In this document: piece by piece, positions 959 through 18,807 of the stretch | Layout of the letters: each line of letters opens with the position of its first letter | Numbering within the stretch: position 1 is the stretch's first letter | From: Candidatus Omnitrophota bacterium | GTDB taxonomy: Bacteria > Omnitrophota > Gorgyraeia > JAGLLT01 | Reading direction: 5' to 3' | DNA length: 64,000 nucleotides | NCBI GenBank assembly: GCA_030632085.1 | Contig: DAOVJY010000002.1 | Location: 77,325-141,324, forward strand | Notes under the pieces: generated by a model | Databases searched by the model: none | The model's input: only the letters and a program-made list of their open reading frames with translations | Told to the model about the DNA's origin: nothing | Made by a program: the position numbers and the translations under genes

Positions 959-960
959 TT

Positions 961-2688: not shown

Positions 2689-2840
2689 ATGAATAAGATA
2701 GTTAAGGCTGGTAGCTTGTATTTGATAATTGTTGTGCTTAAACTAAAACATCCCGCATACTGCGGGATTTAATTCTGGCAAATTACTTACATTCGCTTAC
2801 GCTCTGTAAGTAATGCCCTCATTAAAGGAGGTAACCGAAA

Positions 2841-4127
2841 TTGCCTAAATTTGAATATAAAGCTATAGATCCTAACGGTAGAGAAATTTCAGGTGTTGTT
2901 GATGTCGGAACTACGCAAGAAGCTGTTTCTAAAATAAAAAATAAAGGGTTTTATCCGACACAGATAAACGAAGTAAAAAAAGAACAAGCTCAGAAATCTC
3001 CCGGAGCGGCTGCTGCTGCCGCGCCTGCCGCGCAAAAAAAAAGCGGACTTAATGCTGAATTATGTATTCCTTTTCTGGGCATAGGTACTGTTAAAAATGT
3101 TGATGCCGCGATTTTCACCAGGCAGTTGGCCACGTTAATTGAAGCCGGCCTTCCTTTGGTAAGAAGTTTAAATGTTTTGTATGATCAGCTAAAATCCGGG
3201 CCCTTAAAAAGTATTATATCTAATCTTTCAAAAGACGTTTCCTCCGGAGGTACTTTAAGTGAATCTCTGGCCAAGTACCCTAGGGTTTTTAACCATCTTT
3301 ATGTCAATATGATCAAGGCCGGTGAGGCCGGCGGCATACTTGAACTTGTTTTAGAAAGATTAGCTGAGTTTCAGGAAAAAAACATGGCCTTGACTCAAAA
3401 GGTAAAATCAGCCCTTACTTATCCGGCTTTGGTTGTTGTTTTCTCAGCCGGCGTTCTTTTGTTTTTAACCACCTATATTATTCCCAAATTTATGGGTATT
3501 TTTGAGAATATGGATGTTGGTGAAATGCCGGGCATTACTAAATTTGTTATGATTATGAGTTCGCTTATAAGGGATAAATGGTATATCGGTGTCGGCCTTA
3601 TGGTTTTGGCTATTGTCGCTCTTAAAGTACTAAATAGCTTTAAGAATAGTAAATTTTTCATAGATAAGTTTAAACTGCGTATTCCCGTAGCGGGAGACTT
3701 AACTAAAAAAATAGAAGTATCCAGATTTTCCAGAACTCTGGGTACTCTTATTTCCAGCGGTGTTCCTATCTTGCAGGCTTTACGAATCACACGGGGAATA
3801 ATGAGTAACGAAGTCATGCGCAGGGCTCTCAAGCGTGTTCATGATAGTATCCGCGAAGGTGAATCTATAGCCGGCCCCTTAAAAGCCAGCGGAGCTTTTC
3901 CGCCCATGGTTGTGAATATGATAGATGTTGGTGAAGAAACCGGTTCTTTGGATACCATGCTCAATAAAGTCGCTGATATTTATGATACTGATGTTGATGC
4001 CACGGTAGACGCCTTGACTTCAATCATTGAACCATTTTTGATTGTCAGTATGGGTGTTATTGTAGGTTTCCTGGTAATTTCTATGTTCCTGCCGCTCTTT
4101 AAACTTATGGCTTCATTATCCGCTTAA
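2841..4127 (+). CDS. pilC: Type IV pilus inner-membrane platform protein PilC/GspF
   Basis: 428 aa with two GspF-type repeats and three TM segments. TTG start follows the SD AAAGGAGG. Confidence 0.85.
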   Translation: MPKFEYKAIDPNGREISGVVDVGTTQEAVSKIKNKGFYPTQINEVKKEQAQKSPGAAAAAAPAAQKKSGLNAELCIPFLGIGTVKNVDAAIFTRQLATLIEAGLPLVRSLNVLYDQLKSGPLKSIISNLSKDVSSGGTLSESLAKYPRVFNHLYVNMIKAGEAGGILELVLERLAEFQEKNMALTQKVKSALTYPALVVVFSAGVLLFLTTYIIPKFMGIFENMDVGEMPGITKFVMIMSSLIRDKWYIGVGLMVLAIVALKVLNSFKNSKFFIDKFKLRIPVAGDLTKKIEVSRFSRTLGTLISSGVPILQALRITRGIMSNEVMRRALKRVHDSIREGESIAGPLKASGAFPPMVVNMIDVGEETGSLDTMLNKVADIYDTDVDATVDALTSIIEPFLIVSMGVIVGFLVISMFLPLFKLMASLSA

Positions 4128-4144
4128 AGAGCCGGTTGTTGGTT

Positions 4145-4173
4145 TTGGACATAGTTTAAGAATGTGGTATAAT
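4145..4173 (+). promoter_or_regulatory. Sigma-70-type promoter TTGGAC-N17-TATAAT upstream of the pilin gene array
   Basis: -35 TTGGAC at 4145-4150, a 17-nt spacer and -10 TATAAT at 4168-4173, about 20 nt upstream of the first pilin ATG. Confidence 0.55.
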
Positions 4174-4192
4174 ACGTTATAGAGGTATATGT

Positions 4193-4618
4193 ATGAAAAA
4201 CAACGCTTTTACTATAGTTGAATTAATGATTGTACTCATTATTATGGGTATTCTGATGGGGCTTACCGTAGGAGGAGCTATGAAGATTCTGCAGGAGGCC
4301 AAAAAAGGGCAGGCGGAGGCTGATATAGGTGCTCTTGAATCGGCTGTATCCAGGTATGAAAGGGATATTGGTAGTTATCCCCCTGATTCAGCTAACGGTT
4401 TATGGTATTATCTTGAGGATGATAGATCAGGAGATCCAACCGGTTGGGAAGGCCCTTATATTGATTTTGATGACGGTAGGACTTCAGATAATAATTATGA
4501 AGACCCCTGGGATAATAATTATCAGTATGATTGCACAAGTGTAACTAGGCACAATCTTGACTTTGTAGACATATGGACGACAGTTCCAAGTACAGGGGAT
4601 ACAATAGGCAATTGGTAA
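4193..4618 (+). CDS. GspG-type pseudopilin / major pilin paralog 1
   Basis: Prepilin N-terminus MKNNA|FTIVELMIVLIIMGIL, and GspG hallmarks DIGSYP, WEGPYI and DPWDNNYQY. The C-terminal tail is rich in aromatic and acidic residues. Confidence 0.8.
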   Translation: MKNNAFTIVELMIVLIIMGILMGLTVGGAMKILQEAKKGQAEADIGALESAVSRYERDIGSYPPDSANGLWYYLEDDRSGDPTGWEGPYIDFDDGRTSDNNYEDPWDNNYQYDCTSVTRHNLDFVDIWTTVPSTGDTIGNW

Positions 4619-4632
4619 AGAGGGTGTTTTAA

Positions 4633-5118
4633 ATGATATATAGTAATAAAAAGGCTTTTACATTAGTTGAAATGATAACTGTGATGGTTATTGTCGGTAT
4701 TTTATTAGGGCTTGTGCTAACGGGTTCTTTTAACGCGATTAAGGAAGCTCGAATTGAAAAAGCTAAAGCGGCAATGAAGGCGACTAAGGCGGCGTTAGAG
4801 ATGTTTGAATCGGATATTGGTGATTATCCCGTATATACAAATACATCCGGTAATGGAAATGATTTTAAGTCTTGGTTGATGAATGGGGATCATGCAACCG
4901 GTAATTATGACAACTGGTATGGGCCTTATATGAGTTTTATAGATGCTGAAATTTTAAGTAACACTCATTATTTGGATCCCTGGGGAAACGGTTATAGATA
5001 TTATCATGTAGCGGATACGGATGGCTATAATCTTTGGTCGTCCGGGCCGGATGGAAATAATGACAGCCTTGATGGTGAAAGCGGTATAATCGGAGATGAT
5101 ATAGGTAGTTGGGACTGA
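4633..5118 (+). CDS. GspG-type pseudopilin / major pilin paralog 2
   Basis: KKA|FTLVEMITV N-terminus; motifs DIGDYP, WYGPYM and DPWGNGYRYY; SD AGAGGG. Confidence 0.8.
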   Translation: MIYSNKKAFTLVEMITVMVIVGILLGLVLTGSFNAIKEARIEKAKAAMKATKAALEMFESDIGDYPVYTNTSGNGNDFKSWLMNGDHATGNYDNWYGPYMSFIDAEILSNTHYLDPWGNGYRYYHVADTDGYNLWSSGPDGNNDSLDGESGIIGDDIGSWD

Positions 5119-5123
5119 TAGAT

Positions 5124-5636
5124 ATGAAAAAAATAAAAGCTTTTACATTGATAGAGTTATTAATGGTAATGGTAATTATCGGTATTTTAGCTTCCCTGAT
5201 TACTACCGGGGCTTTTAGGTCTATAAGGGGTGCTCGGGAAAGCAAAGCACAGTCTGATATAGCGGCCCTGGAAACGGCCATTGAGAGATATAAATTAGAT
5301 GTGGGCGTATATCCTCCGGGAGACGGTTCAGGCAACAGCTTTAAGTACTACCTGCAGGATGACAGGAGTGTCGATACAACCGGCTGGAATGGGCCTTACA
5401 TGATTTTTAAAGCTAAGGATTTAAATGTTAACGCTTTTGTTGATCCCTGGGGAAGTGATTATAGATATTATCATGATCAGCTCACCACAGGGAAAGCGTA
5501 TTTGCATACCTACCCGGATACGCATATCACTCAAAATCCAATTGATATATGGTCTATTGGCGAAAACAAAACAGATGATGTAGAAACGACTAATTATATT
5601 AACACAGATGATGATATATACAGCTGGGGGGATTAG
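5124..5636 (+). CDS. GspG-type pseudopilin / major pilin paralog 3
   Basis: MKKIKA|FTLIELLMV N-terminus; motifs DVGVYP, WNGPYM and DPWGSDYRYY. ATG at 5124 is preferred over the ORF-track start at 5109. Confidence 0.8.
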   Translation: MKKIKAFTLIELLMVMVIIGILASLITTGAFRSIRGARESKAQSDIAALETAIERYKLDVGVYPPGDGSGNSFKYYLQDDRSVDTTGWNGPYMIFKAKDLNVNAFVDPWGSDYRYYHDQLTTGKAYLHTYPDTHITQNPIDIWSIGENKTDDVETTNYINTDDDIYSWGD

Positions 5637-5648
5637 TTGGTGATTAAT

Positions 5649-6179
5649 ATGAAAAAGAAATCTTTCACTCTTTTAGAGATGATGGTTGTCTTGGTTATTA
5701 TTTTTATAATAACAGCGATTGCGATGCCTAATTTCTGGGGAGGCTATAAGAGCAAGGAGGTTAAAGGTTCCGCGAGGAGAGTTGCCTCTATTTTAAGTAC
5801 CGCTAAAAGCTATGCCCAAGCTCAAAATACGCAGTATGATGTTGTTTTTTGGTATGGCGATAGTTTTCTTAGTATGGATATTTATAAAGAGTTTGATCCT
5901 TGGACTGAAGCGAGTTGGGATCGTAAAGTTGGAAAATCTGAAAAATTCAATTTTACGAAAGTTGGAATTAGTACTATAATTGATACACCCATTACTACAC
6001 CCATCAGCAATTATGCCTGGATATCATTCTATTCCGATGGGCGCGCTGATGATCATGATGCTAATCTTCCGGAAGATGAAGAGATTGTTTTTACGCTTGA
6101 TGTCGGTGGAACCCCCAAAACCCTTACAATATATATCAATGAAAACACCGGCTGTATAAGAGTTGGTGATTTAGAATAA
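5649..6179 (+). CDS. GspH-like minor pseudopilin
   Basis: MKKKS|FTLLEMMVVLVII prepilin N-terminus; about 175 aa, the size of GspH/FimT. ATG 5649 is preferred over TTG 5637. Confidence 0.65.
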   Translation: MKKKSFTLLEMMVVLVIIFIITAIAMPNFWGGYKSKEVKGSARRVASILSTAKSYAQAQNTQYDVVFWYGDSFLSMDIYKEFDPWTEASWDRKVGKSEKFNFTKVGISTIIDTPITTPISNYAWISFYSDGRADDHDANLPEDEEIVFTLDVGGTPKTLTIYINENTGCIRVGDLE

Positions 6180-6236
6180 TTGATTGCATATTTTCTTGCC
6201 TTTTTTATTTCCTCATGATATAGTTAGCTCCGCGTT

Positions 6237-6713
6237 ATGAGGAATTCAAGTTTAAAATCATCTTTCACTATAATTGAGCTGGTAGTCTGCCTGGTTATTG
6301 TGGGTACTATTTCAGCGGTAACTTTGCCGTATTGTTGGGGCGCTTACAGGTCTGCTGAAGCTAAGACTTCCGCCCGTGTTGTTGCTTCAATATTAAGAAG
6401 CACAAAAGAGAGTGCCCGGGCTCAAGGTAAGAAATATGAGATTATTTTTGCAGCTTGTGATAATAATCTTAATATTGATGTCTATACCAACTTATCAGAA
6501 GTTAATCCTTTGAAAGTAGGTAAGACCGAGAAACTATCCTTAAGCGGTTCATATGAATTTAGAATAACATTTTATAATGATAAAGCCATCTTTACTTCTT
6601 TTGGGACTTCTAACGGAGGGTCTGTTTATATTACTGATACTTCTACAGGCAAAGGTTATAGGATAAGTGTGTTATCAACCTCCGGCAGGGTTAAAGTGCT
6701 GGCTTTTGATTAA
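6237..6713 (+). CDS. GspH-like minor pseudopilin (second copy)
   Basis: SS|FTIIELVVCLVIVG N-terminus. It shares the core ARVVASIL..A with the previous gene, so it is a paralog. Confidence 0.6.
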   Translation: MRNSSLKSSFTIIELVVCLVIVGTISAVTLPYCWGAYRSAEAKTSARVVASILRSTKESARAQGKKYEIIFAACDNNLNIDVYTNLSEVNPLKVGKTEKLSLSGSYEFRITFYNDKAIFTSFGTSNGGSVYITDTSTGKGYRISVLSTSGRVKVLAFD

Positions 6714-6745
6714 TAGCGGTTAGATTTATTTTTCTTTTCTTATCA

Positions 6746-6774
6746 TTGATAAGTTTTGTAACTTGTGGTATTAT
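6746..6774 (+). promoter_or_regulatory. Candidate sigma-70 promoter TTGATA-N17-TATTAT
   Basis: Read directly from the sequence, upstream of the GspI-like gene. Confidence 0.4.
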
Positions 6775-6835
6775 ATACAGTAGAGATAGTATGCATTAAG
6801 TGAATATAATATTTTTTTTAGGAGGTTTATAAAAA

Positions 6836-7198
6836 ATGAGAAAAAAACAAGGGTTCACTCTTTTAGAAATAGTTATTGCTTTGGCTATATTAGCTATCGG
6901 CCTTGTTGGTATTTTAAGCCTTTTTCCGGTAGGTTTTGAGGCCTCAAGAAGGGCCAGTATGCTTACGGAGGCAACTATCCATGCTCAGCAAAAAATGGAA
7001 GAGTTTAAGCGAATCGGCTATGATGGCCTTTTTGATACAAATTACGCGGCATTTTCTGATAATAGTGGTTTGGAATGGAAGGTTACGGTTGTAGAAATAG
7101 ATCCTCTCGGGAATTTAAAAAGCGTAACTCTCGATATTCAATGGCAGGAGAAAGGGGACAATAAGAGTGAGACATTTGTTACTTATATCGCCAAGTAA
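6836..7198 (+). CDS. GspI/PilV-like minor pseudopilin
   Basis: MRKKQG|FTLLEIVIALAIL N-terminus; 120 aa, the size of GspI. Confidence 0.65.
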   Translation: MRKKQGFTLLEIVIALAILAIGLVGILSLFPVGFEASRRASMLTEATIHAQQKMEEFKRIGYDGLFDTNYAAFSDNSGLEWKVTVVEIDPLGNLKSVTLDIQWQEKGDNKSETFVTYIAK

Positions 7199-7817
7199 AA
7201 GAAAGGCTTTTACCCTTATTGAAATACTGGTAGCCAGTGTTATCCTGGTTATTATAGTTGGGTCTATGGCGGTAATTTTTTCGCAGGCTAATCGGTCGTG
7301 GAGTGAAACGGAAGCCAGATTACAGGTTTATCAAAATACCAGGGAAGTTATAAACGCGATCTCCAGAGATATTGCCTGCGCCTATCAAAGCACCAGCACT
7401 GTTGTTAAATTCGATTATGACAACATTGCTACTGATACTCTCTATTTTACCGCGGCGGTTAATACAAATTACGACACAAATGAATATGATTTAAGTATTA
7501 TCGGCTACAAAATAGACACCGCAACCAATACTGTAAAAAAATATAAAGAAGATTATGACGGAACACAAGCTGCCGGCTGGACACCAACTTCCGGCAATTG
7601 GAGCCCTTTGGCTGAGAATATAACCGGTTTGGCTTTTGAGTTTTATGACGCGGATCAGACAGTTCCCGGATGGCTTGTATCAGGTAGTAAATGGAATTCT
7701 AGTGTAGGTGTAAAAGATTATTTACCCCAGGCGGTTAAGATAACAGTTGATGCCGAGGATAAACAAGCTAGATTCAGTAGAACTTTTAATACCACTATCT
7801 ATATTCAGGCATACTAA
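7167..7817 (+). CDS. GspJ/PilW-like minor pseudopilin
   Basis: KRKA|FTLIEILVASVIL N-terminus; 216 aa. It overlaps the previous gene by 32 nt. Confidence 0.6.
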   Translation: MRHLLLISPSKRKAFTLIEILVASVILVIIVGSMAVIFSQANRSWSETEARLQVYQNTREVINAISRDIACAYQSTSTVVKFDYDNIATDTLYFTAAVNTNYDTNEYDLSIIGYKIDTATNTVKKYKEDYDGTQAAGWTPTSGNWSPLAENITGLAFEFYDADQTVPGWLVSGSKWNSSVGVKDYLPQAVKITVDAEDKQARFSRTFNTTIYIQAY

Positions 7818-7914
7818 TTTTGAGAGCATCTATTCAAATAATCAAGAAGTTACGCGGTAAATATGGCATTAACGGCTATGAAGAGAAGTTTCTAAATAAT
7901 CTAAGGTGGTAGAT

Positions 7915-10344
7915 ATGTTAGTAAATTTAAAAAAGAGAAAAGGTATTGCCCTGCCCCTCATCATAGGTATCATTGCTCTTTTGGTTATTATTGTAATGGG
8001 CTTAATAGTTGCTTTGAAGTATGAAACGATAAGCGTCATAGTATCTTCAGATCTACAAAAGGCCGCTTATCTTGCTGATTGCGGAATTAATAAGGCGATC
8101 GCTGGATTAAAAACAAAGGCAGGAAGTGATTTTATCTGGAGTGTAAATGATACAGGTCTAGATGATACTGATTGGTATGACGGATATAGCTGTAGTACCT
8201 TATTAAGTAATCTGGGTTCATATAATGCTAATATTATAGATTGTTCGAATCAGATATATGTTAATGGTGATAATACCGGTGATAGATTAGAAGATATGTT
8301 AAATATCTTAGGCGGAAATATTGGAGGAGGCTGTAGCGGCGATGAAGGAACCAAGATTATTAACAATCGCCCGACAGCCGGCTACGAGACCAAGAAACAG
8401 CTAAGAATTGCCTTAACCGACGGTGAATATAACGCTATTAAAGATTATGTGACAATCTGTAGCTATGTAAATAGTTCGTTTAACCGGGCCCCTATAAATG
8501 TCAATACGGCAAAGCAAGCTGTTTTAGAGACCGTCTTAGAGGGCATATCGGGTATCTCAGATGGGCAAGCAGCTACAGCCGCTAACGCCATTATGAATGG
8601 AAGCGATAAAAGGCCTTTTTCTGATTGGAGCGGTTTTGATACTTGCATAGACGGCACTCTTTTAACTTTAGGCGAGAAACAGTCTATCAAAGATAACTGT
8701 AATCCTAACTCTACCGCCTGGAACAGCACTACTGGAGCATATGAACACACTTCGGATACAACAGAATTCTGTTTTCACGCTGGAGGGTATTTTGAGATAG
8801 AGTCAGAAGGCACCTTTTATCAATCCGCCGCCCAAAGTATTATTCTTGCCCGGAAAAACATTGCTACTATAGTTCATACTCATAGTGTATTTAATAAAAC
8901 TACTAAAGCCGATTTTACCGCGGGGGATACCAATTTTGACGGAACAGAAGATATCGCGGGAGAAGGTGTACCTATCTATGGAAATGTCAACTGGCTTGAT
9001 TCTTGCCCTGTTGATTCGAGTGATGAAACTGGATTGTATTCTGATGAAGCTGCGGGAATATATGATGTAGATGAGACTGATAAATGCAAACCTTTATATG
9101 ATGTTATTCCCGGCTCAATAAAATTAGGTTTTTGGGATAATTGTGATGAGGAGAATGATAATACCGCTCAAACAGGTTGGAGCTGGGAGCACTGGATAGA
9201 TTCTGAAAGCGGCTCTCTTGCAATAGTTGACCGTGATTCAGATGGTGATTATGAATTGAGCTCGACTTCCAGCAACTCAGATTCTCATCTAGATCTTCTT
9301 GGGGTTCAACCCGACCAGTGGAATTGCGGCCAGAAATTCTCAATTAGATTATACGCTCATTTATATGAAGAAAAACCTCACCCATATATAGTTGCGGATA
9401 GTAGGCGATGGGGCGAGATTTATGAAGACGAGCAGCAGATAGAATTTGTCGGGATAGGCGGAACACCTGATATGCATAAGATGTTTGTAAGTCAGTTTAG
9501 ATGTGTATACTGGGGTGGTCCGGTGGATATAAGCGGCGGCGGATTGAACCCACCCGATGATTTTTTAGATACTATGCTTAGAATGATTTGGGATGGCGGC
9601 GGCGGAGAGCACTATGTTTATATGCATGATTTATATAGTTTACCTATTAATAGTGCTACATTACCCGCAGATGGTAATCGTATCCTTCCCTGGAATGTTG
9701 CTATGAGATTAGTTGTTGATGGAAGTGGTGACGGTAATTATACGGCATACCTCGCGGTTGATGACGGAGGCGCTTATCATGAATGGTATGCAGGAGATGG
9801 GGGCGAGTGGATTCCATGGAGCTGGCGGATTCATATGGTGAAGTATGACGCGGATGACCATGACTTCCATATCATGACAGATGTAGGCGATACTGACAGA
9901 TATGATTGTATGAATCATGACCAATCAGTCAATAAGTTTATAAAGACTGATTGGTTTCTACGCTTAAGAAATGATGTCCCAAGTTACAGCCGCTATCCAA
10001 TATGGGATGATGTCCGTATTATTCCTGATGAGGGATATTATCAATCACCTCAGTATAGTCCGACAGGAGGTTCTAATGTTGAATGGGGAGCTATAAACTG
10101 GACACTGACCATGCCAGATTCTGCAAGTTCTTCTTCAGAGACAGCTGAGGTTGAAGTTGATACAGGCAGTGGTTTTAGTCCAGTGAGCCAGAATGGTAGT
10201 ATAAATGCGGCTGCATCGAGTAATATAAAATATAAAGTTACTTTAAAATCAACCGATACAACTCATAAAGAAACACCTGTATTTGAGGATATAACGGTGA
10301 TTTATTTGCCGCAAACGAAAGTATTGTACCGGAGTGGGCAATAA
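7915..10344 (+). CDS. Giant GspK/PilX-like pseudopilin, putative pilus-tip protein
   Basis: Uncleaved hydrophobic N-terminus KGIALPLIIGIIALLVIIVMGLIVAL and a GspK-type HhH-like motif NVNTAKQAVLETVLEGISGIS. It occupies the GspK slot after the I/J-like genes. The central insertion of several hundred residues, rich in Cys, Asp and Gly, is unusual. ATG 7915 with SD AAGGTGG is preferred over GTG 7906. Confidence 0.55.
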   Translation: MLVNLKKRKGIALPLIIGIIALLVIIVMGLIVALKYETISVIVSSDLQKAAYLADCGINKAIAGLKTKAGSDFIWSVNDTGLDDTDWYDGYSCSTLLSNLGSYNANIIDCSNQIYVNGDNTGDRLEDMLNILGGNIGGGCSGDEGTKIINNRPTAGYETKKQLRIALTDGEYNAIKDYVTICSYVNSSFNRAPINVNTAKQAVLETVLEGISGISDGQAATAANAIMNGSDKRPFSDWSGFDTCIDGTLLTLGEKQSIKDNCNPNSTAWNSTTGAYEHTSDTTEFCFHAGGYFEIESEGTFYQSAAQSIILARKNIATIVHTHSVFNKTTKADFTAGDTNFDGTEDIAGEGVPIYGNVNWLDSCPVDSSDETGLYSDEAAGIYDVDETDKCKPLYDVIPGSIKLGFWDNCDEENDNTAQTGWSWEHWIDSESGSLAIVDRDSDGDYELSSTSSNSDSHLDLLGVQPDQWNCGQKFSIRLYAHLYEEKPHPYIVADSRRWGEIYEDEQQIEFVGIGGTPDMHKMFVSQFRCVYWGGPVDISGGGLNPPDDFLDTMLRMIWDGGGGEHYVYMHDLYSLPINSATLPADGNRILPWNVAMRLVVDGSGDGNYTAYLAVDDGGAYHEWYAGDGGEWIPWSWRIHMVKYDADDHDFHIMTDVGDTDRYDCMNHDQSVNKFIKTDWFLRLRNDVPSYSRYPIWDDVRIIPDEGYYQSPQYSPTGGSNVEWGAINWTLTMPDSASSSSETAEVEVDTGSGFSPVSQNGSINAAASSNIKYKVTLKSTDTTHKETPVFEDITVIYLPQTKVLYRSGQ

Positions 10345-10355
10345 AGGAGCAGGAT

Positions 10356-11666: not shown

Positions 11667-11716
11667 ATTACATTGATTTGTTTTAGCGATTAACACTTTG
11701 GAGATGATATAAACAA

Positions 11717-13375
11717 ATGGCAATTAAGAATTTAATCGGGCTAGATATAGGCCATAGCGCGGTCAAGTTAATAAAATTTAAGAAAGTCCGCAATAAAATA
11801 CAGCTTGAGAAGGCCCGAGTGGTTGAACTGCAAGATGGTGTTTCCCCTTCAGCGGCAATAGCCGCGCTTTTTAAAAGTGAACGATTAGGCGCTTGCAAAA
11901 TAGCTATATCCGTTTCAGGCCAGTCTGTTTTTACGCGCTATACAAAGCTTCCTAAAATATCCCAGAAAAAGATTGAACAAGTAGTTAAATATGAAGCCCA
12001 GCAGCAGATTCCTTTTCCGATTGATAAGGTTGTTTGGGATTATCAGCTATTTAAAATATCTAAAGGCTCTCAGTTGGAAGTTTTTCTGGCTGCCGTTAAG
12101 AAAGACATTATAGATAATTTATATCGCCAGGTAAACGCGATTAAAGGAGCTGAAGTTGTTTCTGTGCAGCCCGCGCCGGTAGCTCTTTATAATATACTTA
12201 ATTTTAATAAAGAAATAAACGATAAAACGGTTATTTTAGATATTGGAGCTAATGTTACCAGCGCTATCATTGCTAAAGGCAGGCAGTTGTGGATAAGAAG
12301 TATACCTATGGGCGGGGCCGAGTTAACCAGGGTTATAGGTGAAAGCCTGGCTTTAAAACCTCAGGAAGCGGAGATTTTAAAACGTAAAGAAGGTATCGTG
12401 TTGGCGGGTGTTACCGGTGATGAAGACCTGACTCCAAGGTCAGACGCGATTTCAAAGGCTATTAGTCCCGTGTTAAGTGAACTTTTATCGGAAGTTTCAC
12501 GTTCTATTAGTTATTATAAATCTCAATTTGATAAAGAAGCGGTTTTTGAGAAAGTGCTGCTGACAGGCGGCGGTTCTAAGATACGTTATATCGAAAGATT
12601 TTTTGAAGCTAACCTGAAGATAAAGACAGAAAAAGTCAATCTTTTTAAAAATTTAACCACTAATAAATACGTAAAAGCTAACATTGATGACATTGATGAT
12701 CGCTTGGCGGTTGCTATGGGCTTAGCCCTCCCGGGAGTAGAAACGCCGACTATTAATTTAAATTTGATTTCTGATCAACAAAGGAAGCTCAAAGACTTTT
12801 CAAAGAAGAAAGTATATATTACCAGCTCCGCGTTAATTGCTCTCGGTATTTTTGCCATGCTGAGTTTATGCAATGCGCAGGGAGTGAATTCAGCTGCCGG
12901 CAATCTTAAAGCTATATCTCTTGAAATGAATAAATACCGTGATAATCAAGTAACAATAAATGAGTTGCAAAACAGTATCAAGGCTGTAAAACTAAAGTTA
13001 AACTTTTTAGGAGATATTACTAAAGACAGAACAATCTGGCTGAATATATTATCAAGAATAAACGGTTCTTTGCCGGGGGATACTTGGTTAATCAGGTTTA
13101 GCACCGACGCGAATGAACCTAATATTATTATTTTAGAAGGTAAAACAACCGGCCCTTTTGATACAATTAAAAACTTCGGGGAAAAGCTTCTTAGCCTTGG
13201 GTTTTTTTCCGGCGTTGAAACTTTGCGGGCTGACAGGCCGTCGGCTGAAGAAGAAGAGTTAGGCGAGCCGTACAATATAGTGTTTACTTTAAAGTTGATG
13301 TTGAAAAACCCGGCTTCTAATTTTTTCATAAGAAAAGAACCTGTAGCCGCGGAAAACAAAAGAATTAAAAGATGA
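11717..13375 (+). CDS. pilMN: PilM-PilN fusion protein (actin-like ATPase fused to a TM coiled-coil domain)
   Basis: N-terminus LIGLDIGHSAVKLIK is a PilM/FtsA-like fold. An internal TM helix VYITSSALIALGIFAMLSLC at about aa 365 is followed by a PilN-like periplasmic region. Confidence 0.75.
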   Translation: MAIKNLIGLDIGHSAVKLIKFKKVRNKIQLEKARVVELQDGVSPSAAIAALFKSERLGACKIAISVSGQSVFTRYTKLPKISQKKIEQVVKYEAQQQIPFPIDKVVWDYQLFKISKGSQLEVFLAAVKKDIIDNLYRQVNAIKGAEVVSVQPAPVALYNILNFNKEINDKTVILDIGANVTSAIIAKGRQLWIRSIPMGGAELTRVIGESLALKPQEAEILKRKEGIVLAGVTGDEDLTPRSDAISKAISPVLSELLSEVSRSISYYKSQFDKEAVFEKVLLTGGGSKIRYIERFFEANLKIKTEKVNLFKNLTTNKYVKANIDDIDDRLAVAMGLALPGVETPTINLNLISDQQRKLKDFSKKKVYITSSALIALGIFAMLSLCNAQGVNSAAGNLKAISLEMNKYRDNQVTINELQNSIKAVKLKLNFLGDITKDRTIWLNILSRINGSLPGDTWLIRFSTDANEPNIIILEGKTTGPFDTIKNFGEKLLSLGFFSGVETLRADRPSAEEEELGEPYNIVFTLKLMLKNPASNFFIRKEPVAAENKRIKR

Positions 13376-14160
13376 AATTTTTTAAAGAACTGCTTCAGAG
13401 AAATTTAATATTTTTTATTGTAACAGCCTTACTGTTATTAGTGGTTGTTGCCGCCGGGGTTAATTTTGCTTCCGGCCTTGGAAAGAAATATTCCCTGGAC
13501 GGTAAAATCCAAAAAGAAATGCGGCTTTTAGATAATTTCAAAACGATAAAGGACGCGGCTCCAACTTTAAAATGGATAGATTATCTATCTAAAAAAGAAA
13601 AGCTTTTTGGTAAAATATATGTTGATGCCGGCTTACTGTATGATAAGCCGGCGTCTTTTATGCCAAAAGATATTATTGAACCTTTAAAATTCAAGGAAAA
13701 GATTTTTAAAAAGCAGAAGGAGATGCGTAAAAAGGCGTATTCCAGCCAGCTTGAATTAAAAGAAGAGGCTGTATCTTTTGGTTTTAAGGAATATGAAACC
13801 AAGATACCAACTGAAGCCGAAGTTCCAAATTTGACAAAAAAATTGGATATTATTCAAGAAGTAGTAAATCTTATGTGCCTCAGTCATATTGAGACCTTAT
13901 CTTCAGTTGAGTTTCTAACTCATAGAGATGACAAGTTGGAGACTATTCGGGGTAATATCAATTACAGAGTTTTTTCTTTAAGGCTTAGCGCAACCTCATC
14001 CGTGAAAAAATTGGTTGATTTATTATTCAAAATATCAACGTCGGATTATATATTTATAACCGAAGAATTAAATATCGCACAATCGGAAGATTTTAAGGAA
14101 AAAATAAATTCAAGTTTTGTTATTTCGTGCATAGTACTTATGGAGAGCGATGAAAAGTAA
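13372..14160 (+). CDS. PilO-like inner-membrane pilus assembly protein
   Basis: Single N-terminal TM helix LIFFIVTALLLLVVVAAGV followed by a soluble domain. Its position after pilMN and 4-nt overlaps with both neighbours support the call. Confidence 0.45.
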   Translation: MKFFKELLQRNLIFFIVTALLLLVVVAAGVNFASGLGKKYSLDGKIQKEMRLLDNFKTIKDAAPTLKWIDYLSKKEKLFGKIYVDAGLLYDKPASFMPKDIIEPLKFKEKIFKKQKEMRKKAYSSQLELKEEAVSFGFKEYETKIPTEAEVPNLTKKLDIIQEVVNLMCLSHIETLSSVEFLTHRDDKLETIRGNINYRVFSLRLSATSSVKKLVDLLFKISTSDYIFITEELNIAQSEDFKEKINSSFVISCIVLMESDEK

Positions 14161-14836
14161 TCCCTTATTATCCAATATAGAAAAAATAGTTTTCGGACTC
14201 TTGATTCTCATTTCATTAATTGTTATTGTAATCTATCAAGGGCGTATTTATATTAAAGATGAAACTATCAAAAATAAAATAGCCGGAGTTAAATTTAATT
14301 TACCTCCTGAAAAAATTGAAGGCGTTAAAGAATATAATGACTTAATCGCGCGGCTTAAGCGGTTAGATAGTTTTAGTAAATATGAAATCTATCTCGCGAG
14401 AAACGGTTTTCTGAAATATATTAAGCCGGTGCCCGAGATACCTCCATTTGAATTAAAGGCTGTCCGTAAAAAATATCTGGATGTGGAATATAGGGGTTTT
14501 ATAGAGTCTCTTTCGGGTACCGTTGCCCAGTTAAAGGTGAAAAACAGATCTTACTTCGTTAAAGAAGGCGATGAAATTGATGGCTATACAGTTAAAAAAG
14601 TATGTAATGATTATATGCTCATTAAAGATGGGGCCGGCGTTGAATACATATTGCCTTTAGGAGAAAAGATTTTAAGTAATGATTATGAGGCCGCGCTTTA
14701 CGTAAGTAAAACACATAAGACGGTTAAGGTAAAATTGGGTGATATTGTAAATGGCTTCAAAGTACTTGACATTTCACCTGAGAATGTGGTATTATATAAC
14801 CAAACTTATAATAAAAAACTAATTGTAGAGAAGTAA
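14150..14836 (+). CDS. PilP-like pilus assembly protein (putative)
   Basis: N-terminal TM helix IVFGLLILISLIVIVIY and a beta-rich C-terminal region. Its position between pilO and the secretin genes supports the call. Confidence 0.35.
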   Translation: MKSNPLLSNIEKIVFGLLILISLIVIVIYQGRIYIKDETIKNKIAGVKFNLPPEKIEGVKEYNDLIARLKRLDSFSKYEIYLARNGFLKYIKPVPEIPPFELKAVRKKYLDVEYRGFIESLSGTVAQLKVKNRSYFVKEGDEIDGYTVKKVCNDYMLIKDGAGVEYILPLGEKILSNDYEAALYVSKTHKTVKVKLGDIVNGFKVLDISPENVVLYNQTYNKKLIVEK

Positions 14837-14891
14837 CATAAGTGTGGACACAAGATGTTGCGATTAAGCTACTAAAAAAAGGAGAGTCTCA

Positions 14892-16001
14892 ATGTGCAGG
14901 CTTCTTAAAAAATTTACTGTATTAATTTGCTTAACTATAGTAATAGTCTTTGCTCTCAATAATATAGCCTATTCTCGAAGCAAAACAGACGCTGAAGATT
15001 TAGCCAAAAAGCTTGCTGTGCAGAAGAAGCTGGAGCAGGAAGAAAACGAGATATTGATAGATGGCCGTAATCAACGGGGCATTTATTATTTCAACAAAGG
15101 ATATTATAATGAAGCTATTCAGCAGTTTCATTTAGCCCTAGAGCTTGATCCCGGTAGTGCCGTAGCCAATGAATATCTCAATAAGGCATTGGAAAAACTT
15201 AGCAAGTCGGCTAAGAAGCATTATAAAAAGGGTGTGGCTTACTATAATAAGGGAGAAATGCAGAAATGTATTGATGAAATGTCTATGATACCCGTATGTT
15301 CTTCTTATTATCAAAAAGCGCAAGAGTATATTACATATTCTGATGAAGTATTGACCGAAGGTGCCGTTTATGGAATAAATAGCCCTAAAGCCGGAACACA
15401 GCACATTAAAGATCAAATGAGGCAAATGGACTCAGAGAAAGAGTTAGTTATGCTGCGCAAAAAAGCTCACGAGCAGCAACTCATGCTTGAAGTAGATTCA
15501 GCCTATTTACCCCCGGAATCATATGAAGAAGCAGCGGAGGAAGAAGCTATAAGCGCTGAAGAAATAGAAGAGCAGCAAAGAGAAGAAGCTCAGAAAAGAT
15601 TGCGGGCTAAGATGAATGAAAACATTGTTCCCGCTTTAAGTTTAAGTGATGCCGATATCAGAGATGTTATCAGGGAATTAGTTAAATTAACCGGTGTTAA
15701 TATCATTCTTGATGAAGGAGCTCTAAAGAAGGCATTAGAAGCCGGCATTATGACAGTGTCGTTTACTACCGTTACCCCCATGCCGCTTTTAGACTTATTA
15801 GATATTGCTTTAAAAACTTCCGATTTAACTTATAAAATGGAACCTACATATATATGGATCTCAGATAAAGAAACTATATATAAAGAAAACTTAGTCGTTA
15901 GGACTTATAAGCTTAAATATGGAGTAAGAAGCACTAGAAGTGTGCAGCTTACTCAATTTGGTGATGACGTGGATGATGACTTTGGTGATGATGATTTTTA
16001 A
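14892..16001 (+). CDS. Secreted TPR protein carrying a secretin/TonB N0-like (STN) domain with an acidic C-terminal tail
   Basis: Signal peptide and a TPR region (YFNKGYYNEAIQQFHLALELDP). The segment DADIRDVIRELVKLTGVNIILDEG...TVSFTTVTPMPLLDLLDIALKTSDLTYK matches the N0 domain of PilQ/GspD. The protein ends DDVDDDFGDDDF. Confidence 0.6.
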   Translation: MCRLLKKFTVLICLTIVIVFALNNIAYSRSKTDAEDLAKKLAVQKKLEQEENEILIDGRNQRGIYYFNKGYYNEAIQQFHLALELDPGSAVANEYLNKALEKLSKSAKKHYKKGVAYYNKGEMQKCIDEMSMIPVCSSYYQKAQEYITYSDEVLTEGAVYGINSPKAGTQHIKDQMRQMDSEKELVMLRKKAHEQQLMLEVDSAYLPPESYEEAAEEEAISAEEIEEQQREEAQKRLRAKMNENIVPALSLSDADIRDVIRELVKLTGVNIILDEGALKKALEAGIMTVSFTTVTPMPLLDLLDIALKTSDLTYKMEPTYIWISDKETIYKENLVVRTYKLKYGVRSTRSVQLTQFGDDVDDDFGDDDF

Positions 16002-16014
16002 CCTATAAAAGGCT

Positions 16015-17190
16015 ATGATAAGAAGAAAAATATTTATTATTATTCTGTTAGTATTAGTTTCAAGTAATGTTTGCTACGCGCAGGAAGGCATGAGTGTTAA
16101 GGAGTATTTAGAAGAAGCCCTTCCTTCTCAAGCCGGCAGAAAAATAGTTCTTGATAGAACTAGCGGTATTCTAACTGTAACCGATACTCCCTCTAATCAC
16201 AAACTTATCAGGCGTTTGATTGGGGAATTTGATGTTGGCCCGACTCAGGTTATGATTGAGGCTCGTTTTGTTGAGGTAAAAATTAACAATTTAGAAGAGT
16301 TGGGTACAGAGTTTTACTGGTACCAGCAAGGTGACGCTTCGGATGGTAGGATATTTAGAAGCCTTGAGGTGGGAGATGCTCCCGGTTTATATGATAGAGG
16401 CGCGTCGAGTTTCAGTGAGAGTTTAGAGACAACTGCCGACGGTATTCAATGGGGCTCTTACGATTCATCAGGTAATTACGAAGGTTTTCCGGCTGAAGGA
16501 TATGGAGCTGATTTTTTCTTTGGAAAAACCGGGTATGATGGAAATTTCTTAAGAGCTTATATACATGCTTTGGAAGAAAAAGGCAAGGCTAATACTCTTT
16601 CAGCTCCAAAGATTATGACAATGGCGGGCCAAATGGCTACTATGGAAGTTACCAGAACTTTTCCTTACGTAAGCAAGGTTGAACTTGAAAACCAAGGAAC
16701 TGCTGATGACCCGATTTGGAACTTAAAAACAACTATAGAAGAAAAGACTATTGGTATTTCACTGGAAGTTACTCCTCATGTGGCTTCCGGAAGCAAATTT
16801 ATAACTTTAGATTTACATCCTGAAGTTAATGTTTTATTAGATCAAAGGTCGATAAGACCATCTGTTGAAACAACATATTTTGATTTTGAGGATGGCGAGT
16901 ATATTTATTGGTCGAGGACTGTCCCAGGTATTCCAGATTCTGTAGGTTGGCCGACAGTAGATACCAGGTCTACGCAGACAACCGTAGTTACTCAAAGCGG
17001 CAGGACAATAATACTTGGCGGCATGATACGAGAAGAAGAGTCTGTAACGAACAAAAGCATTCCTATATTAGGAAGTATTCCCATATTAGGAAATTTGTTC
17101 AAATATAAACATGTTGAGAAGGAAAAAACAAATTTACTTATTTTTATTACCGCGACATTAATATCACCTGAAGGTGAAGAGATTAAATAA
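16015..17190 (+). CDS. Short secretin (PilQ/GspD family core), paralog 1
   Basis: Signal peptide; N1/KH-like domain (VMIEARFVEV); secretin C-domain motifs LSAPKIMTMAGQMATMEV and IPILGSIPILGNLFKYKHVEKEKTNLLIFITATLI. Only 391 aa, with no N0 domain. Confidence 0.85.
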   Translation: MIRRKIFIIILLVLVSSNVCYAQEGMSVKEYLEEALPSQAGRKIVLDRTSGILTVTDTPSNHKLIRRLIGEFDVGPTQVMIEARFVEVKINNLEELGTEFYWYQQGDASDGRIFRSLEVGDAPGLYDRGASSFSESLETTADGIQWGSYDSSGNYEGFPAEGYGADFFFGKTGYDGNFLRAYIHALEEKGKANTLSAPKIMTMAGQMATMEVTRTFPYVSKVELENQGTADDPIWNLKTTIEEKTIGISLEVTPHVASGSKFITLDLHPEVNVLLDQRSIRPSVETTYFDFEDGEYIYWSRTVPGIPDSVGWPTVDTRSTQTTVVTQSGRTIILGGMIREEESVTNKSIPILGSIPILGNLFKYKHVEKEKTNLLIFITATLISPEGEEIK

Positions 17191-18350
17191 TGAAAAAAAT
17201 AATAGTAATATTTTTTATTTTAAGTTTAATGTTAATTTCAATAAAAGTTGTCTCGGCTCAGGACGCGGATACCATTAAAGATTTTTTAGAACAAGTTTTG
17301 CCTCCGCAGCCGGGCAGAAAGATTGTTTTAAATTCCGCGACAGGGATGTTGACTGTAACAGACACGCCTTCAAATCACAAACTGGTAAGAGAACTCCTTG
17401 GAAAGTGGGATATTGGCCCGAGGCAGATATCAATAGAAGCTAAATTTGTTGAAATTTCTGAAGGTGTTTTAAATGAGTTGGGAATTGAATGGTATGGTAC
17501 CAGAAGCGATACTCAGCATCAGGTTGGTGTTGAAAGGCGAAAAAAGAAGCATAATTTTTATGTAGGCCAAGGACCAACAAGTGGTACAGGTAACGCGCAA
17601 CTAAGACCACCGGTATACGACCAAAGTACATCTGGCGCCTCAGCGGCGACAGATTATAGATATGATTCGTCATGGCCAACACCTCCCTGGAGCGGCACTG
17701 AATGGGGCGCCCCGGCAGATCCCGCGGGTTTGGGATTGTGGGTAGGAAAATCTTACCTTTCAGGTACTGAATTGTACGCGTATTTAAGGGCCCTTGAATC
17801 TGATAATAAAGTAGCTTTATTATCAGCGCCAAGAGTTACCACCTTATCAGGTCAGATGGCTAATATAGAATTAGCAACTACACAGCCATATGCTTCGGAA
17901 GTAAACCTGACAGATACAGGCGCCAGTTCTTTTGGGCATTATCAAACATATGAAATTGAAGAGAAGAAGACGGGTATATTTCTTGAGGTTACTCCCTCTG
18001 TTGCTGAAGGGGGTAATATTGTAACTCTTGATATACATCCGGAAGTTAGTGAAGTTGTCAGAAAAGTACCTTTATCAGATAGTACTCAATTCCCCAGTTA
18101 CTTAGGATGGCCTATTGTTGATATGCGCACAACTCAGACTACGGTTGCCGTAAGAAGCGGCCAAACTATCGTTATTGGCGGCCTTATGCAGGATAGTGAA
18201 GTCATGATAGAGCGTAAGGTACCTATTTTGGGTAGTATTCCAATATTGGGTAACTTATTCAAATATAAGTATGAGGAAAAAGAAAAAACTAACTTAGTAA
18301 TATTTTTAAAAGCGACTATAATTTCCGCCGACGGCAAGGAAGTTAAATAA
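17190..18350 (+). CDS. Short secretin (PilQ/GspD family core), paralog 2
   Basis: Same architecture as paralog 1 (ISIEAKFVEI, LSAPRVTTLSGQMANIEL, VPILGSIPILGNLFKYKYEEKEKTNLVIFLKATII), with a divergent, Gly/Pro/Trp-rich central insertion. Confidence 0.85.
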   Translation: MKKIIVIFFILSLMLISIKVVSAQDADTIKDFLEQVLPPQPGRKIVLNSATGMLTVTDTPSNHKLVRELLGKWDIGPRQISIEAKFVEISEGVLNELGIEWYGTRSDTQHQVGVERRKKKHNFYVGQGPTSGTGNAQLRPPVYDQSTSGASAATDYRYDSSWPTPPWSGTEWGAPADPAGLGLWVGKSYLSGTELYAYLRALESDNKVALLSAPRVTTLSGQMANIELATTQPYASEVNLTDTGASSFGHYQTYEIEEKKTGIFLEVTPSVAEGGNIVTLDIHPEVSEVVRKVPLSDSTQFPSYLGWPIVDMRTTQTTVAVRSGQTIVIGGLMQDSEVMIERKVPILGSIPILGNLFKYKYEEKEKTNLVIFLKATIISADGKEVK

Positions 18351-18661
18351 TGAAAAAAAAGTGCTTGAAGTTTTTAATTTGCTTGTTAATTGTTCATATA
18401 ATTAGCTTTGCGGGAATAGCTGAAAAGGCCGCGGCCGCTGAGGACAACAGCAAAATTAAACTTACAACGTGTGACTTGCATAAGCCTTATATTATTAGAG
18501 GCCTTGTTCATGTAAGAACGGGGCAACCTGACCTTAATAAAATTGATGAAATGTTGATAAAGGAGGCCAAAAAACTTGATGCCGATTGTATTATCGGTGT
18601 CGGTTATATGGAAGCATACGGATATCTTTTTGGTTATGGTACAGCCGTTAAGGTAAAATGA
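18350..18661 (+). CDS. Small secreted protein with a YbjQ/UPF0145-like C-terminal fold
   Basis: Signal peptide MKKKCLKFLICLLIVHIISFAG; C-terminal ADCIIGVGYMEAYGYLFGYGTAVKV resembles the UPF0145 core. Confidence 0.3.
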   Translation: MKKKCLKFLICLLIVHIISFAGIAEKAAAAEDNSKIKLTTCDLHKPYIIRGLVHVRTGQPDLNKIDEMLIKEAKKLDADCIIGVGYMEAYGYLFGYGTAVKVK

Positions 18662-18807
18662 TTCTGCATCGAAATAACTAACCTTTTTAAATCCCAAAAA
18701 ACTTATAAAAGTAGATATTATTTCAACCTCCCTTTTAGATAAATGTTTATATATATTGATGAACCTGAAAGCAACTGGATTAGTTATATAAAGGAGAATT
18801 ATTAATC

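What the first reader, a model, noticed from the sequence alone, without database searches (positions are those of the whole stretch)
14892..18350. Secretin split into three genes: a TPR + N0-domain protein followed by two tandem short secretin cores
Both secretin paralogs (391 and 386 aa) have only a signal peptide, one N1/KH-like domain and the secretin C-domain. The N0 (STN) domain that normally begins secretins sits instead on the preceding separate protein. That protein also has a TPR region and a poly-acidic tail. The two cores differ mainly in a ~70-aa central segment, the predicted gate/cap region. This points to a heteromeric or modular outer-membrane channel. One possibility is N0 supplied in trans. 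Another is two alternative channels with different gating.
Basis: partly seen in the sequence, partly recalled or inferred. Interest (0 to 1): 0.75.

Follow-up and report, generated by a model that had tools for sequence, protein, structure and literature searches.

The report
Split pilus secretin with two cores
In a large group of Omnitrophota bacteria, the outer-membrane pore of a type IV pilus-like machine, normally one protein, is encoded as three conserved genes (an anchor piece and two pore-forming paralogues), and the break falls inside a small domain that probably has to be rebuilt from two chains.

Summary
Window 14892-18350 encodes a 369-aa exported TPR + N0 protein, then two short secretins: A (391 aa) and B (386 aa), 43% identical.

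This is not an artefact. In all 29 Omnitrophota species loci that extend far enough, plus one more divergent lineage, the order is PilM/N-PilO-PilP-N0 protein-core A-core B-small protein.

Fused single-chain relatives exist with the architecture TPR-N0-N1-secretin (700-820 aa). One Omnitrophota MAG has such a 707-aa secretin at the syntenic locus.

Alignment to the fused forms places the gene boundary inside the N1 domain, in a variable linker between strand beta1 and helix alpha1. Beta1 ("LVVRTYKLKYG") stays on the N0 protein and the alpha-beta-beta-alpha remainder starts each core. In an AF2 model of N0 protein joined to core B, the tail strand becomes ordered (pLDDT 44 to 78).

All split cores form one clade apart from the fused forms (100/100 bootstraps). 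A and B are ancient paralogues kept in fixed order, with 4-nt start/stop overlaps in 21/29 loci.

Best reading: a three-polypeptide secretin, with N0 and beta1 supplied in trans. Whether A and B form one mixed ring or two channels is unresolved.

The roughly 70-90-aa variable segment is the apical (cap) region. It is hypervariable in both paralogues, so it is not an A-versus-B signature.

Verdict: a new variant of a known kind.

The parts
14892..16001 (+). N0 protein (369 aa): signal peptide, TPR block, long helices, N0 domain, N1 strand beta1, acidic tail
   Evidence: ORF. TPR_2 27 bits. AF2 model. Foldseek N0 hits. 58 stand-alone homologues of 356-389 aa, none fused.
15054..15356 (+). TPR region (residues about 55-155)
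   Evidence: pLDDT above 90 and helical repeats. TPR Pfam hits. Weak PilW and PilF 2ho1 similarity.
15627..15884 (+). N0/STN domain (residues 246-331)
   Evidence: beta-alpha-beta-beta-alpha-beta-beta in AF2, pLDDT about 80. Foldseek hits 4ar0, 7pmp, 3ezj, 5ngi. Most conserved block of the family.
15888..15926 (+). Conserved tail strand LVVRTYKLKYG (residues 333-345), inferred to be beta1 of the N1 domain
   Evidence: Invariant Y339, L341, G344 and R349. Disordered in the protein alone; strand E335-340 with pLDDT 78 when core B is present. Directly abuts helix alpha1 in the compact fused relatives P0257 and P0213.
15954..15998 (+). Acidic tail (residues 355-369): remnant of the beta1/alpha1 linker in which the gene was split
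   Evidence: Aligns to the variable low-complexity linker of the fused forms, e.g. P0264 EFGELDAMDEFGEEDLDFGDE. Not conserved family-wide.
16015..17190 (+). Secretin core A (391 aa): signal peptide, N1 remainder (alpha-beta-beta-alpha), apical variable region, secretin barrel
   Evidence: Pfam Secretin 141.7 bits and Secretin_N 26.7 bits over profile 14-69. Clade A of the tree.
16312..16566 (+). Core A apical (cap-side) hypervariable segment, residues about 100-184
   Evidence: No consensus within clade A. 22-46% identity to L002 against about 75-90% in flanking blocks. Positional equivalent of the secretin apical region.
17190..18350 (+). Secretin core B (386 aa): same layout as A; its start shares one base with the stop of A
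   Evidence: Pfam Secretin 149.0 bits and Secretin_N 32.9 bits. Barrel pLDDT above 90 in the AF2 chimera. Foldseek VcPilQ 6w6m at 1e-18. Junction sequence.
17490..17789 (+). Core B apical hypervariable segment, residues about 101-200
   Evidence: pLDDT below 50 in AF2. Corresponds to E. coli GspD 351-405 and VcPilQ 356-390. Hypervariable.
18350..18661 (+). Conserved exported protein of about 100 aa directly after core B (candidate accessory, function unknown)
   Evidence: Present after core B in all 29 complete loci and in L036. Only weak YbjQ/BhsA-like similarity.
14150..14836 (+). PilP / GspC-HR-like protein (228 aa), the expected partner of the N0 domain
   Evidence: Weak GspC_delta (1.3e-4) and PilP (3e-3) hits, below cut-off. 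Conserved position directly upstream of the N0 protein.
11717..14160 (+). PilM-PilN fusion (552 aa) and Amuc_1100/PilO-like protein (262 aa): inner-membrane alignment complex
   Evidence: PilM_2 131 bits. Amuc_1100 family hit.
2..10344 (+). Rest of the machine: a second T2SSE-family ATPase (PilT-like, cut by the window start), PilB/GspE ATPase, PilC/GspF platform, three GspG-like pilins, minor pilins, 812-aa GspK-like protein
   Evidence: Pfam T2SSE, MshEN, T2SSF, T2SSG, N_methyl, T2SSJ and T2SSK hits. The PilT-like label is my reading; no tool separates PilT from other T2SSE members here.

Best explanation
This is the outer-membrane secretin of an Omnitrophota type IVa pilus / T2SS-like machine of the PVC (Akkermansia Amuc_1098-1100) kind. 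An ancestral single-chain TPR-N0-N1-secretin has been split by gene fission, and the pore-forming half has been duplicated.

Shown:
- The cut lies in a variable low-complexity loop inside the N1 domain, between strand beta1 and helix alpha1.
- The first protein therefore carries TPR + N0 + beta1. Each core begins with the alpha-beta-beta-alpha remainder of N1, followed by the secretin barrel.
- All three proteins have their own signal peptides.
- The layout is fixed across the clade.

Inferred mechanism:
- After export, the C-terminal beta1 strand of the N0 protein inserts into the incomplete N1 domain of a core (strand complementation in trans).
- This tethers a ring of N0 domains under the channel.
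- The N0 ring is the docking site for the PilP-like protein, and so for the PilM/N/O platform.
- It also brings along a pilotin-like TPR module.
- Cores A and B are made in coupled amounts from overlapping genes. They most likely co-assemble into one mixed ring, whose surface-exposed apical loops evolve fast.
For: - Domains.
- Conservation: the seven-gene order is the same in 29/29 species loci that extend downstream and in a more divergent lineage (L036/L037). 58 N0-protein homologues are all stand-alone. The top 120 of 770 core homologues are all 339-408 aa.
- Fused counterparts: 10/10 tested proteins of 707-814 aa have TPR + STN + Secretin_N + Secretin. They align collinearly across the junction. 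P0257 and P0213 have beta1 directly followed by alpha1; the others have a 10-90-aa linker at that spot.
- Synteny: L035 carries one fused 707-aa secretin between the PilM/N and Amuc_1100-like genes and PolA-CoaE-Rho-L31-RF1, the same neighbourhood as the window.
- Strand complementation: the N0 domain is already complete at residue 325. The tail is as conserved as N0 yet disordered in the protein alone (pLDDT 44). With core B it becomes strand E335-340 at pLDDT 78, which together with H375-382, E390-394, E399-404 and H406-419 gives a canonical beta-alpha-beta-beta-alpha. A direct in-silico splice extends the Pfam Secretin_N match from profile 14-69 (core A) or 10-69 (core B) to 1-69.
- Paralogues: two clades with mirrored topologies. 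A+B are monophyletic against the fused forms in 100/100 bootstraps. 4-nt overlap in 21/29 loci and 1 nt in the window. Both keep the GG hinge and the VPxLGxIPxLG motif.
Against: - It was not seen directly.
- The AF2 chimera is covalently linked and used unpaired alignments.
- The splice test gave little score gain (+2.8 bits for A, -0.7 bits for B).
- Pfam Secretin_N matches start at profile position 7-31 even in the fused proteins, so the truncated Pfam match is not itself evidence.
- Nothing tested separates one mixed A/B ring from two homomeric rings.
- One N0 gene serving two core genes raises an unanswered stoichiometry question.
- There are no expression or protein data.
Confidence: 0.7

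Rival explanations
1. Cores A and B form two separate homomeric channels that share the N0 protein and the inner-membrane machine. For example, one could pass the pilus and the other could secrete proteins or take up DNA, or they could be two surface variants of the same channel.
For: - Both cores keep every secretin hallmark and could each form a ring.
- The cluster encodes three GspG-like major pilin paralogues and two T2SSE-family ATPases, so more than one filament or mode is conceivable.
- Core A carries an extra insertion of about 17 aa (residues 285-303) that B lacks.
- Solved secretin structures are homomeric (PDB hits).
Against: - Strict co-retention, fixed order and start/stop overlap in 21/29 loci point to coupled, roughly equal synthesis, which is typical of subunits of one complex.
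- No sampled lineage has lost either copy.
- There is only one N0 protein, one PilP-like protein and one platform.
Confidence: 0.3
2. The N0 protein is a transient assembly factor, not a stable subunit. It would act as a pilotin-like or chaperone-like TPR protein that caps the incomplete N1 domain of the cores by donor-strand complementation during transit, and then leaves.
For: - The TPR module resembles T4P pilotins such as PilF/PilW (weak hits).
- The Akkermansia PilQ N-terminal TPR region was called pilotin-like by its describers (PMC4960237).
- The tail is disordered on its own.
Against: - In the fused relatives the same TPR-N0 module is covalently part of the secretin, so it is a permanent component there.
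- N0 is the canonical docking site for PilP/GspC (established knowledge). A PilP-like gene sits directly upstream.
- There is no lipobox, unlike real pilotins (read from the sequence).
Confidence: 0.15
3. The three ORFs are an artefact: a frameshifted or mis-assembled single secretin, or a decaying pseudogene.
For: Related genomes do carry a single full-length secretin at the same locus (L035).
Against: - The same split is found in about 30 independently assembled species-level genomes.
- Each core has its own start codon and signal peptide.
- Both halves are under clear constraint down to 30% identity.
- The cores form their own clade.
Confidence: 0.01

Closest known systems
Amuc_1098-type PilQ of Akkermansia / PVC bacteria, and the fused TPR-N0-N1-secretin proteins found here (e.g. 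P0201 in an Omnitrophota MAG)
   Same: - Same domain order (TPR, N0, one N1-type domain, secretin), collinear residue by residue.
- Same gene neighbourhood, including an Amuc_1100-like gene and PilM/N.
- The NCBIfam Amuc_1098 profile hits the N0 protein at profile positions 216-396 and the cores at the profile's C-terminal end.
   Different: - Here the protein is cut into two chains inside N1, and the pore half is duplicated.
- Scores are far below the family cut-off (33, 118 and 142 bits against 750).
- Akkermansia PilQ is one 907-residue chain (PMC4960237).
Split secretin of rhizobial-type T3SS (RhcC1/NolW + RhcC2; HrcIIC1 + HrcIIC2 in P. syringae)
   Same: A secretin whose N-terminal periplasmic part and C-terminal pore part are separate genes. 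It is conserved in a lineage and its functional meaning is unknown (PMC3574062; PMC4500985).
   Different: - That one belongs to a type III system. Its C-part is described as an acquired Tad-like secretin and its N-part as a remnant (PMC4500985), i.e. replacement and not a simple fission.
- Its two genes are not adjacent.
- There is no duplication of the pore half.
- No split inside a domain has been reported.
Secretin plus separate periplasmic partner systems (BfpB-BfpG in T4bP; PilQ-TsaP; GspD-GspC/PilQ-PilP)
   Same: A separate periplasmic protein forms a ring under or around the secretin and connects it to the rest of the machine (PMC12531336 abstract; PDB 9u5s, 6ve2 and 6hcg among the hits).
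   Different: Those partners are distinct proteins that bind a complete secretin. Here the partner is the secretin's own N-terminal module and is proposed to complete a domain.
Donor-strand complementation in chaperone-usher pili (analogy only, from general knowledge)
   Same: An incomplete fold is completed by a beta-strand from another chain.
   Different: It involves an unrelated fold (Ig-like pilins) and an unrelated pathway. There the strand is exchanged during polymerisation.

Membership tests
Secretin superfamily (PF00263) | C-terminal secretin domain above the Pfam cut-off | tested here: met
   141.7 bits (A) and 149.0 bits (B) against a cut-off of 27.5. Foldseek to PilQ, GspD and InvG at 1e-18 to 1e-13.
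Secretin superfamily (PF00263) | Conserved GG hinge and VPxLGxIPxLGxLF amphipathic-lip motif | tested here: met
   Both cores and both clade consensuses keep them. Assigning these motifs to the hinge and the lip rests on general knowledge.
Secretin superfamily (PF00263) | N0 domain at the N-terminus of the same polypeptide | tested here: not met
   The cores start at helix alpha1 of N1, 4-6 residues after the signal peptide. N0 is on the upstream protein.
Secretin superfamily (PF00263) | 12-15-mer ring in the outer membrane | not testable with these tools
   Needs biochemistry, cryo-EM or a multimer prediction.
N0 / STN domain | beta-alpha-beta-beta-alpha-beta-beta fold resembling secretin N0 and the TonB-dependent-receptor signalling domain | tested here: met
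   AF2 residues 246-331. Foldseek 4ar0, 7pmp, 3ezj, 5ngi and 2iah.
N0 / STN domain | Pfam STN or type_II_gspD_N0 above the cut-off | tested here: inconclusive
   16.2 and 17.1 bits against cut-offs of 28.4 and 27. Several family members and fused relatives do reach STN.
Amuc_1098 family type IV pilus outer membrane protein (NF042912) | Whole-protein score of at least 750 bits as one chain of about 800 aa | tested here: not met
   33.1 bits (N0 protein), 118.5 bits (A) and 142.1 bits (B). The pieces map to successive parts of the profile.
T4aP PilQ (TIGR02515) | Score of at least 284 bits; AMIN domains plus N0 plus N1 | tested here: not met
   142 and 150 bits. No AMIN hit.
T2SS GspD (TIGR02517) | Score of at least 351 bits; N0-N1-N2-N3 plus S domain | tested here: not met
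   166 and 178 bits, covering only profile positions about 295-593. There is a single N domain. The cores end right after the last barrel strand.
Rhc-type split T3SS secretin (RhcC1/RhcC2) | Part of a T3SS gene cluster | tested here: not met
   The cluster encodes T2SSE, T2SSF, T2SSG and PilM components. Scores against SctC are lower than against GspD or PilQ.
T4P pilotin (PilF/PilW/Tgl TPR lipoproteins) | Lipobox cysteine plus a TPR fold | tested here: not met
   A TPR is present, but the signal peptides end in A-x-A-like sites with no conserved Cys (alignment). PilW scores 17.7 bits against a cut-off of 154.

The most novel reading that the evidence does not exclude
An obligate three-polypeptide, hetero-oligomeric secretin. 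Cores A and B alternate in one ring of even subunit number. Each subunit's N1 ring-building domain is completed by a donor strand from a separate N0-TPR protein. This would be the first natural mixed-subunit secretin and the first secretin domain assembled from two chains.
Probability: 0.35. Interest if true: 0.8.

Novelty: new variant of a known kind. Interest (0 to 1): 0.62.

Why it matters
Secretins are textbook homo-oligomers of one long chain. How their periplasmic N-domain rings are built, and how they couple to the inner-membrane platform, is still debated.

A lineage-wide natural experiment offers several things:
- The N0 module is detached, so its contribution can be studied separately from the pore.
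- N1 is cut between beta1 and alpha1, which tests whether a ring-building domain can be reconstituted from two chains.
- The pore half is kept as two co-translated paralogues, which raises the possibility of a mixed ring with even symmetry.

It also matters for annotation. In these genomes the short "GspD" genes lack N0, and the N0 carrier is labelled only as a TPR or hypothetical protein. Pilus-system detectors may therefore mis-score the system.

Omnitrophota are ultra-small and probably host-dependent, and type-4a pili are thought to be central to their attachment (PMC10066038). The fast-evolving apical loops of both cores fit a surface under selection.

Tried and rejected
Two workaround alignments (A3, A4) were mis-aligned by MAFFT and discarded. 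A5, with the full N0 protein plus mature core B in row 1, worked.
- The Pfam splice test (tail strand joined to core) extended coverage to profile 1-69, but the score barely changed, so it is inconclusive. The truncated Secretin_N match is not diagnostic, because the fused relatives show it too.
- The first bootstrap tree script timed out. It was redone with a faster distance method.
- I considered that the tandem fused pair in L034 might be the ancestor of A and B. Rejected: neither P0264 nor P0257 groups with A or B.
- I considered that the poly-acidic tail is a functional motif. Rejected as a family feature.
- I considered recombination to explain the discordant divergence of the L002 cores. 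The divergence is concentrated in the apical segment, so fast local evolution is the simpler reading.
- Contexts of two further divergent N0-protein homologues (P0212, P0223) were uninformative, because the contigs end right after the gene.
- Literature searches for split, tandem or heteromeric T4P/T2SS secretins found only the rhizobial T3SS case.
Full report
**1. What is there**

The window comes from an Omnitrophota metagenome scaffold (ENA ERZ23498525 scaffold_7, 286 kb). The closest named relative is Candidatus Kappaea frigidicola, whose N0 protein is 80% identical.

Positions 2-18661 hold one + strand cluster for a type IV pilus / T2SS-like machine. It encodes:
- a second T2SSE-family ATPase (PilT-like, cut by the window start) and a PilB/GspE ATPase with an MshEN domain;
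- a PilC/GspF platform protein;
- three GspG-like pilins, several minor pilins and an 812-aa GspK-like protein;
- a TPR protein;
- a PilM-PilN fusion, an Amuc_1100/PilO-like protein and a PilP/GspC-HR-like protein;
- then the three genes of the finding, followed by a 103-aa exported protein.

**2. Checking the observation**

ORFs 14892-16001 (369 aa), 16015-17190 (391 aa) and 17190-18350 (386 aa) are as described.

Both short proteins score 142 and 149 bits on Pfam Secretin and carry one Secretin_N domain. They are 43% identical. Each has its own signal peptide.

The N0 gene ends with TAA at 15999-16001. Core A starts 13 nt later in another frame. The stop of core A and the start of core B share one base.

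The upstream protein gives only sub-threshold N0/STN HMM hits. Two other lines confirm the fold:
- An AF2 model built on 28 homologues shows a confident TPR block (residues about 55-155) and a beta-alpha-beta-beta-alpha-beta-beta domain at 246-331.
- Foldseek's best PDB matches are the N0 domains of PilQ (4ar0), LspD (7pmp), GspD (3ezj) and XcpQ (5ngi).

**3. Not an artefact, and not local**

The N0 protein has 58 homologues down to 30% identity. All are stand-alone proteins of 356-389 aa. Core B has 770 homologues at E <= 1e-10, and the best 120 are all 339-408 aa.

A scan of one genome per species found 32 loci, all Omnitrophota MAGs. In every one of the 29 whose contig extends downstream, the order is PilM/N - PilO - PilP - N0 protein - core - core - small protein. 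A more divergent lineage with a 485-aa N0 protein has the same layout next to PolA-CoaE-Rho (L036/L037).

**4. Where the split is**

An exhaustive HMMER search with only the N0 + tail segment found proteins of 700-820 aa. All ten that I tested have TPR + STN + Secretin_N + Secretin in one chain. Aligned to N0 protein + mature core, they are collinear straight through the gene boundary.

- In two of them (P0257, P0213) the strand "TRTYELPAG" is followed within three residues by the helix "HIVETLEASLP". That is a compact beta-alpha-beta-beta-alpha N1 domain.
- In the other eight a low-complexity linker of 10-90 aa is inserted exactly there. In P0264 it is an acidic stretch very like the window's tail.
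- The window's gene boundary lies inside that linker.

The N0 domain is already complete at residue 325. The conserved tail strand LVVRTYKLKYG (333-345) is therefore beta1 of N1, and the cores start with the alpha-beta-beta-alpha remainder.

The tail is as conserved as N0 but is disordered when the protein is modelled alone (pLDDT about 44). In an AF2 model of N0 protein joined to mature core B, with unpaired family alignments for each half, residues 335-340 become a strand at pLDDT 78. They sit next to a confident alpha-beta-beta-alpha (H375-382, E390-394, E399-404, H406-419).

I could not read the model coordinates, so the actual pairing is inferred. A Pfam splice test was inconclusive.

**5. 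Evolution**

One Omnitrophota MAG (L035, GCA_043800345.1) has the same neighbourhood: GspE, GspF, pilins, PilM/N and an Amuc_1100-like gene upstream, and PolA, CoaE, Rho, L31 and RF1 downstream. It carries a single fused 707-aa secretin. Another scaffold (L034) has two full-length fused secretins in tandem.

In a distance tree of the pore halves, all split cores form one clade separate from all fused forms in 100/100 bootstraps. Neither L034 copy groups with A or B. Within the split clade, first-position and second-position cores form two groups with mirrored topologies. Support is 75% for clade A. Clade B is unstable (30%), apparently because of one long branch, L018's second core.

The simplest history is one fission in the N1 linker and one duplication of the pore half, both in the stem of this clade and both kept ever since.

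**6. The two cores**

Both keep all the secretin hallmarks. Their genes overlap by 4 nt in 21 of 29 loci, which suggests coupled translation.

It corresponds to E. coli GspD 351-405 and V. cholerae PilQ 356-390. This is the poorly conserved apical region, which forms the optional top/cap gate when it reaches about 80 residues or more (PMC10550240). It is not the central gate.

The segment has no consensus within either clade and is modelled with pLDDT below 50. Between the window and its close relative L002 it is 22-46% identical, while most flanking blocks are about 75-97% and neighbouring genes are 82-89%. It is therefore a fast-evolving surface region in both paralogues and not what distinguishes A from B. 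Core A additionally has an insertion of about 17 aa at residues 285-303.

**7. Mechanism**

Shown: a secretin encoded as an N-terminal TPR-N0-beta1 chain and two alpha-beta-beta-alpha + barrel chains, all exported and all conserved.

Inferred:
- The beta1 tail completes the N1 fold of the cores in trans and so anchors an N0 ring under the channel.
- N0 is the known docking site for the PilP/GspC HR domain (established knowledge), and a PilP-like gene sits directly upstream.
- The TPR module, described as pilotin-like in Akkermansia PilQ (PMC4960237), travels with it. It has no lipobox.

Open: whether A and B form one mixed ring (my preference, from the strict co-retention and the coupled translation) or two homomeric channels.

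**8. Comparison with the known**

- The closest family is the fused Amuc_1098-type PilQ. The pieces here map onto successive parts of that profile but score far below its cut-off.
- The only described split secretin I found is the rhizobial-type T3SS RhcC1/RhcC2 pair, whose function is stated to be unknown (PMC3574062). It is explained as a remnant plus an acquired Tad-like secretin (PMC4500985). That is a different system and a different route.
- The main Omnitrophota genomics paper reports type-4a pili as widespread, but the word "secretin" does not occur in it (PMC10066038).
- My literature searches found no report of a split or tandem-core T4P/T2SS secretin. The library covers open-access papers only.

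**9. Verdict**

This is a real feature, conserved across a lineage. It is a new variant of a known kind (a secretin). It has a specific, testable structural proposal, namely a domain completed by a strand from another chain. It also leaves an open question with real novelty potential: a mixed-subunit ring.

Noticed in passing
window 18350-18661 (+): An exported protein of about 100 aa follows core B directly in every complete locus and in L036. A profile gives only weak similarity to YbjQ-like pentameric proteins (3qkb, 1y2i), BhsA/YdgH-like periplasmic proteins and a selenium-binding protein. It could be a secretin accessory such as a pilotin or a plug.
   Followed up: partly
window 16312-16566 and 17490-17789; L002 7857-10168: The apical segments of both cores are 22-46% identical between the window and L002. 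Most of the rest of the cores is about 75-97% identical, and neighbouring genes are 82-89%. This indicates rapid diversification of the surface-exposed loops in both paralogues together.
   Followed up: partly
L034 2174-6863: Two full-length fused TPR-N0-N1-secretin genes (814 and 739 aa) sit in tandem upstream of CoaE-Rho on an unnamed metagenome scaffold. This is an independent duplication of this secretin type, not the ancestor of cores A and B.
   Followed up: partly
window 14766-14795 (+): The best sigma-70-like match in 11300-19000 (TTGACA, 18 nt, TATTAT, with an upstream TG) lies about 100 nt before the N0 gene, inside the 3' end of the PilP-like gene. It may be an internal promoter for the secretin genes. 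It is a consensus match only.
   Followed up: no
window 4193-5636 and 7906-10344 (+): There are three consecutive GspG-like major pilin paralogues (141, 161 and 175 aa) and an unusually large (812 aa) GspK-like minor pilin with a long Asp/Gly/Ser-rich extension.
   Followed up: no
window 1-64000: Almost every ORF of 220 aa or more is on the + strand, and GC skew is positive across the whole 64 kb. A 6S RNA lies at 63261-63415, and tRNA-Cys, tRNA-Leu and tRNA-Val lie at 55994-56664.
   Followed up: no
window 10356-11453 (+): A second exported protein with weak TPR hits (365 aa, Lys/Glu-rich) sits between the GspK-like gene and pilM/N. Its role is unknown.
   Followed up: no
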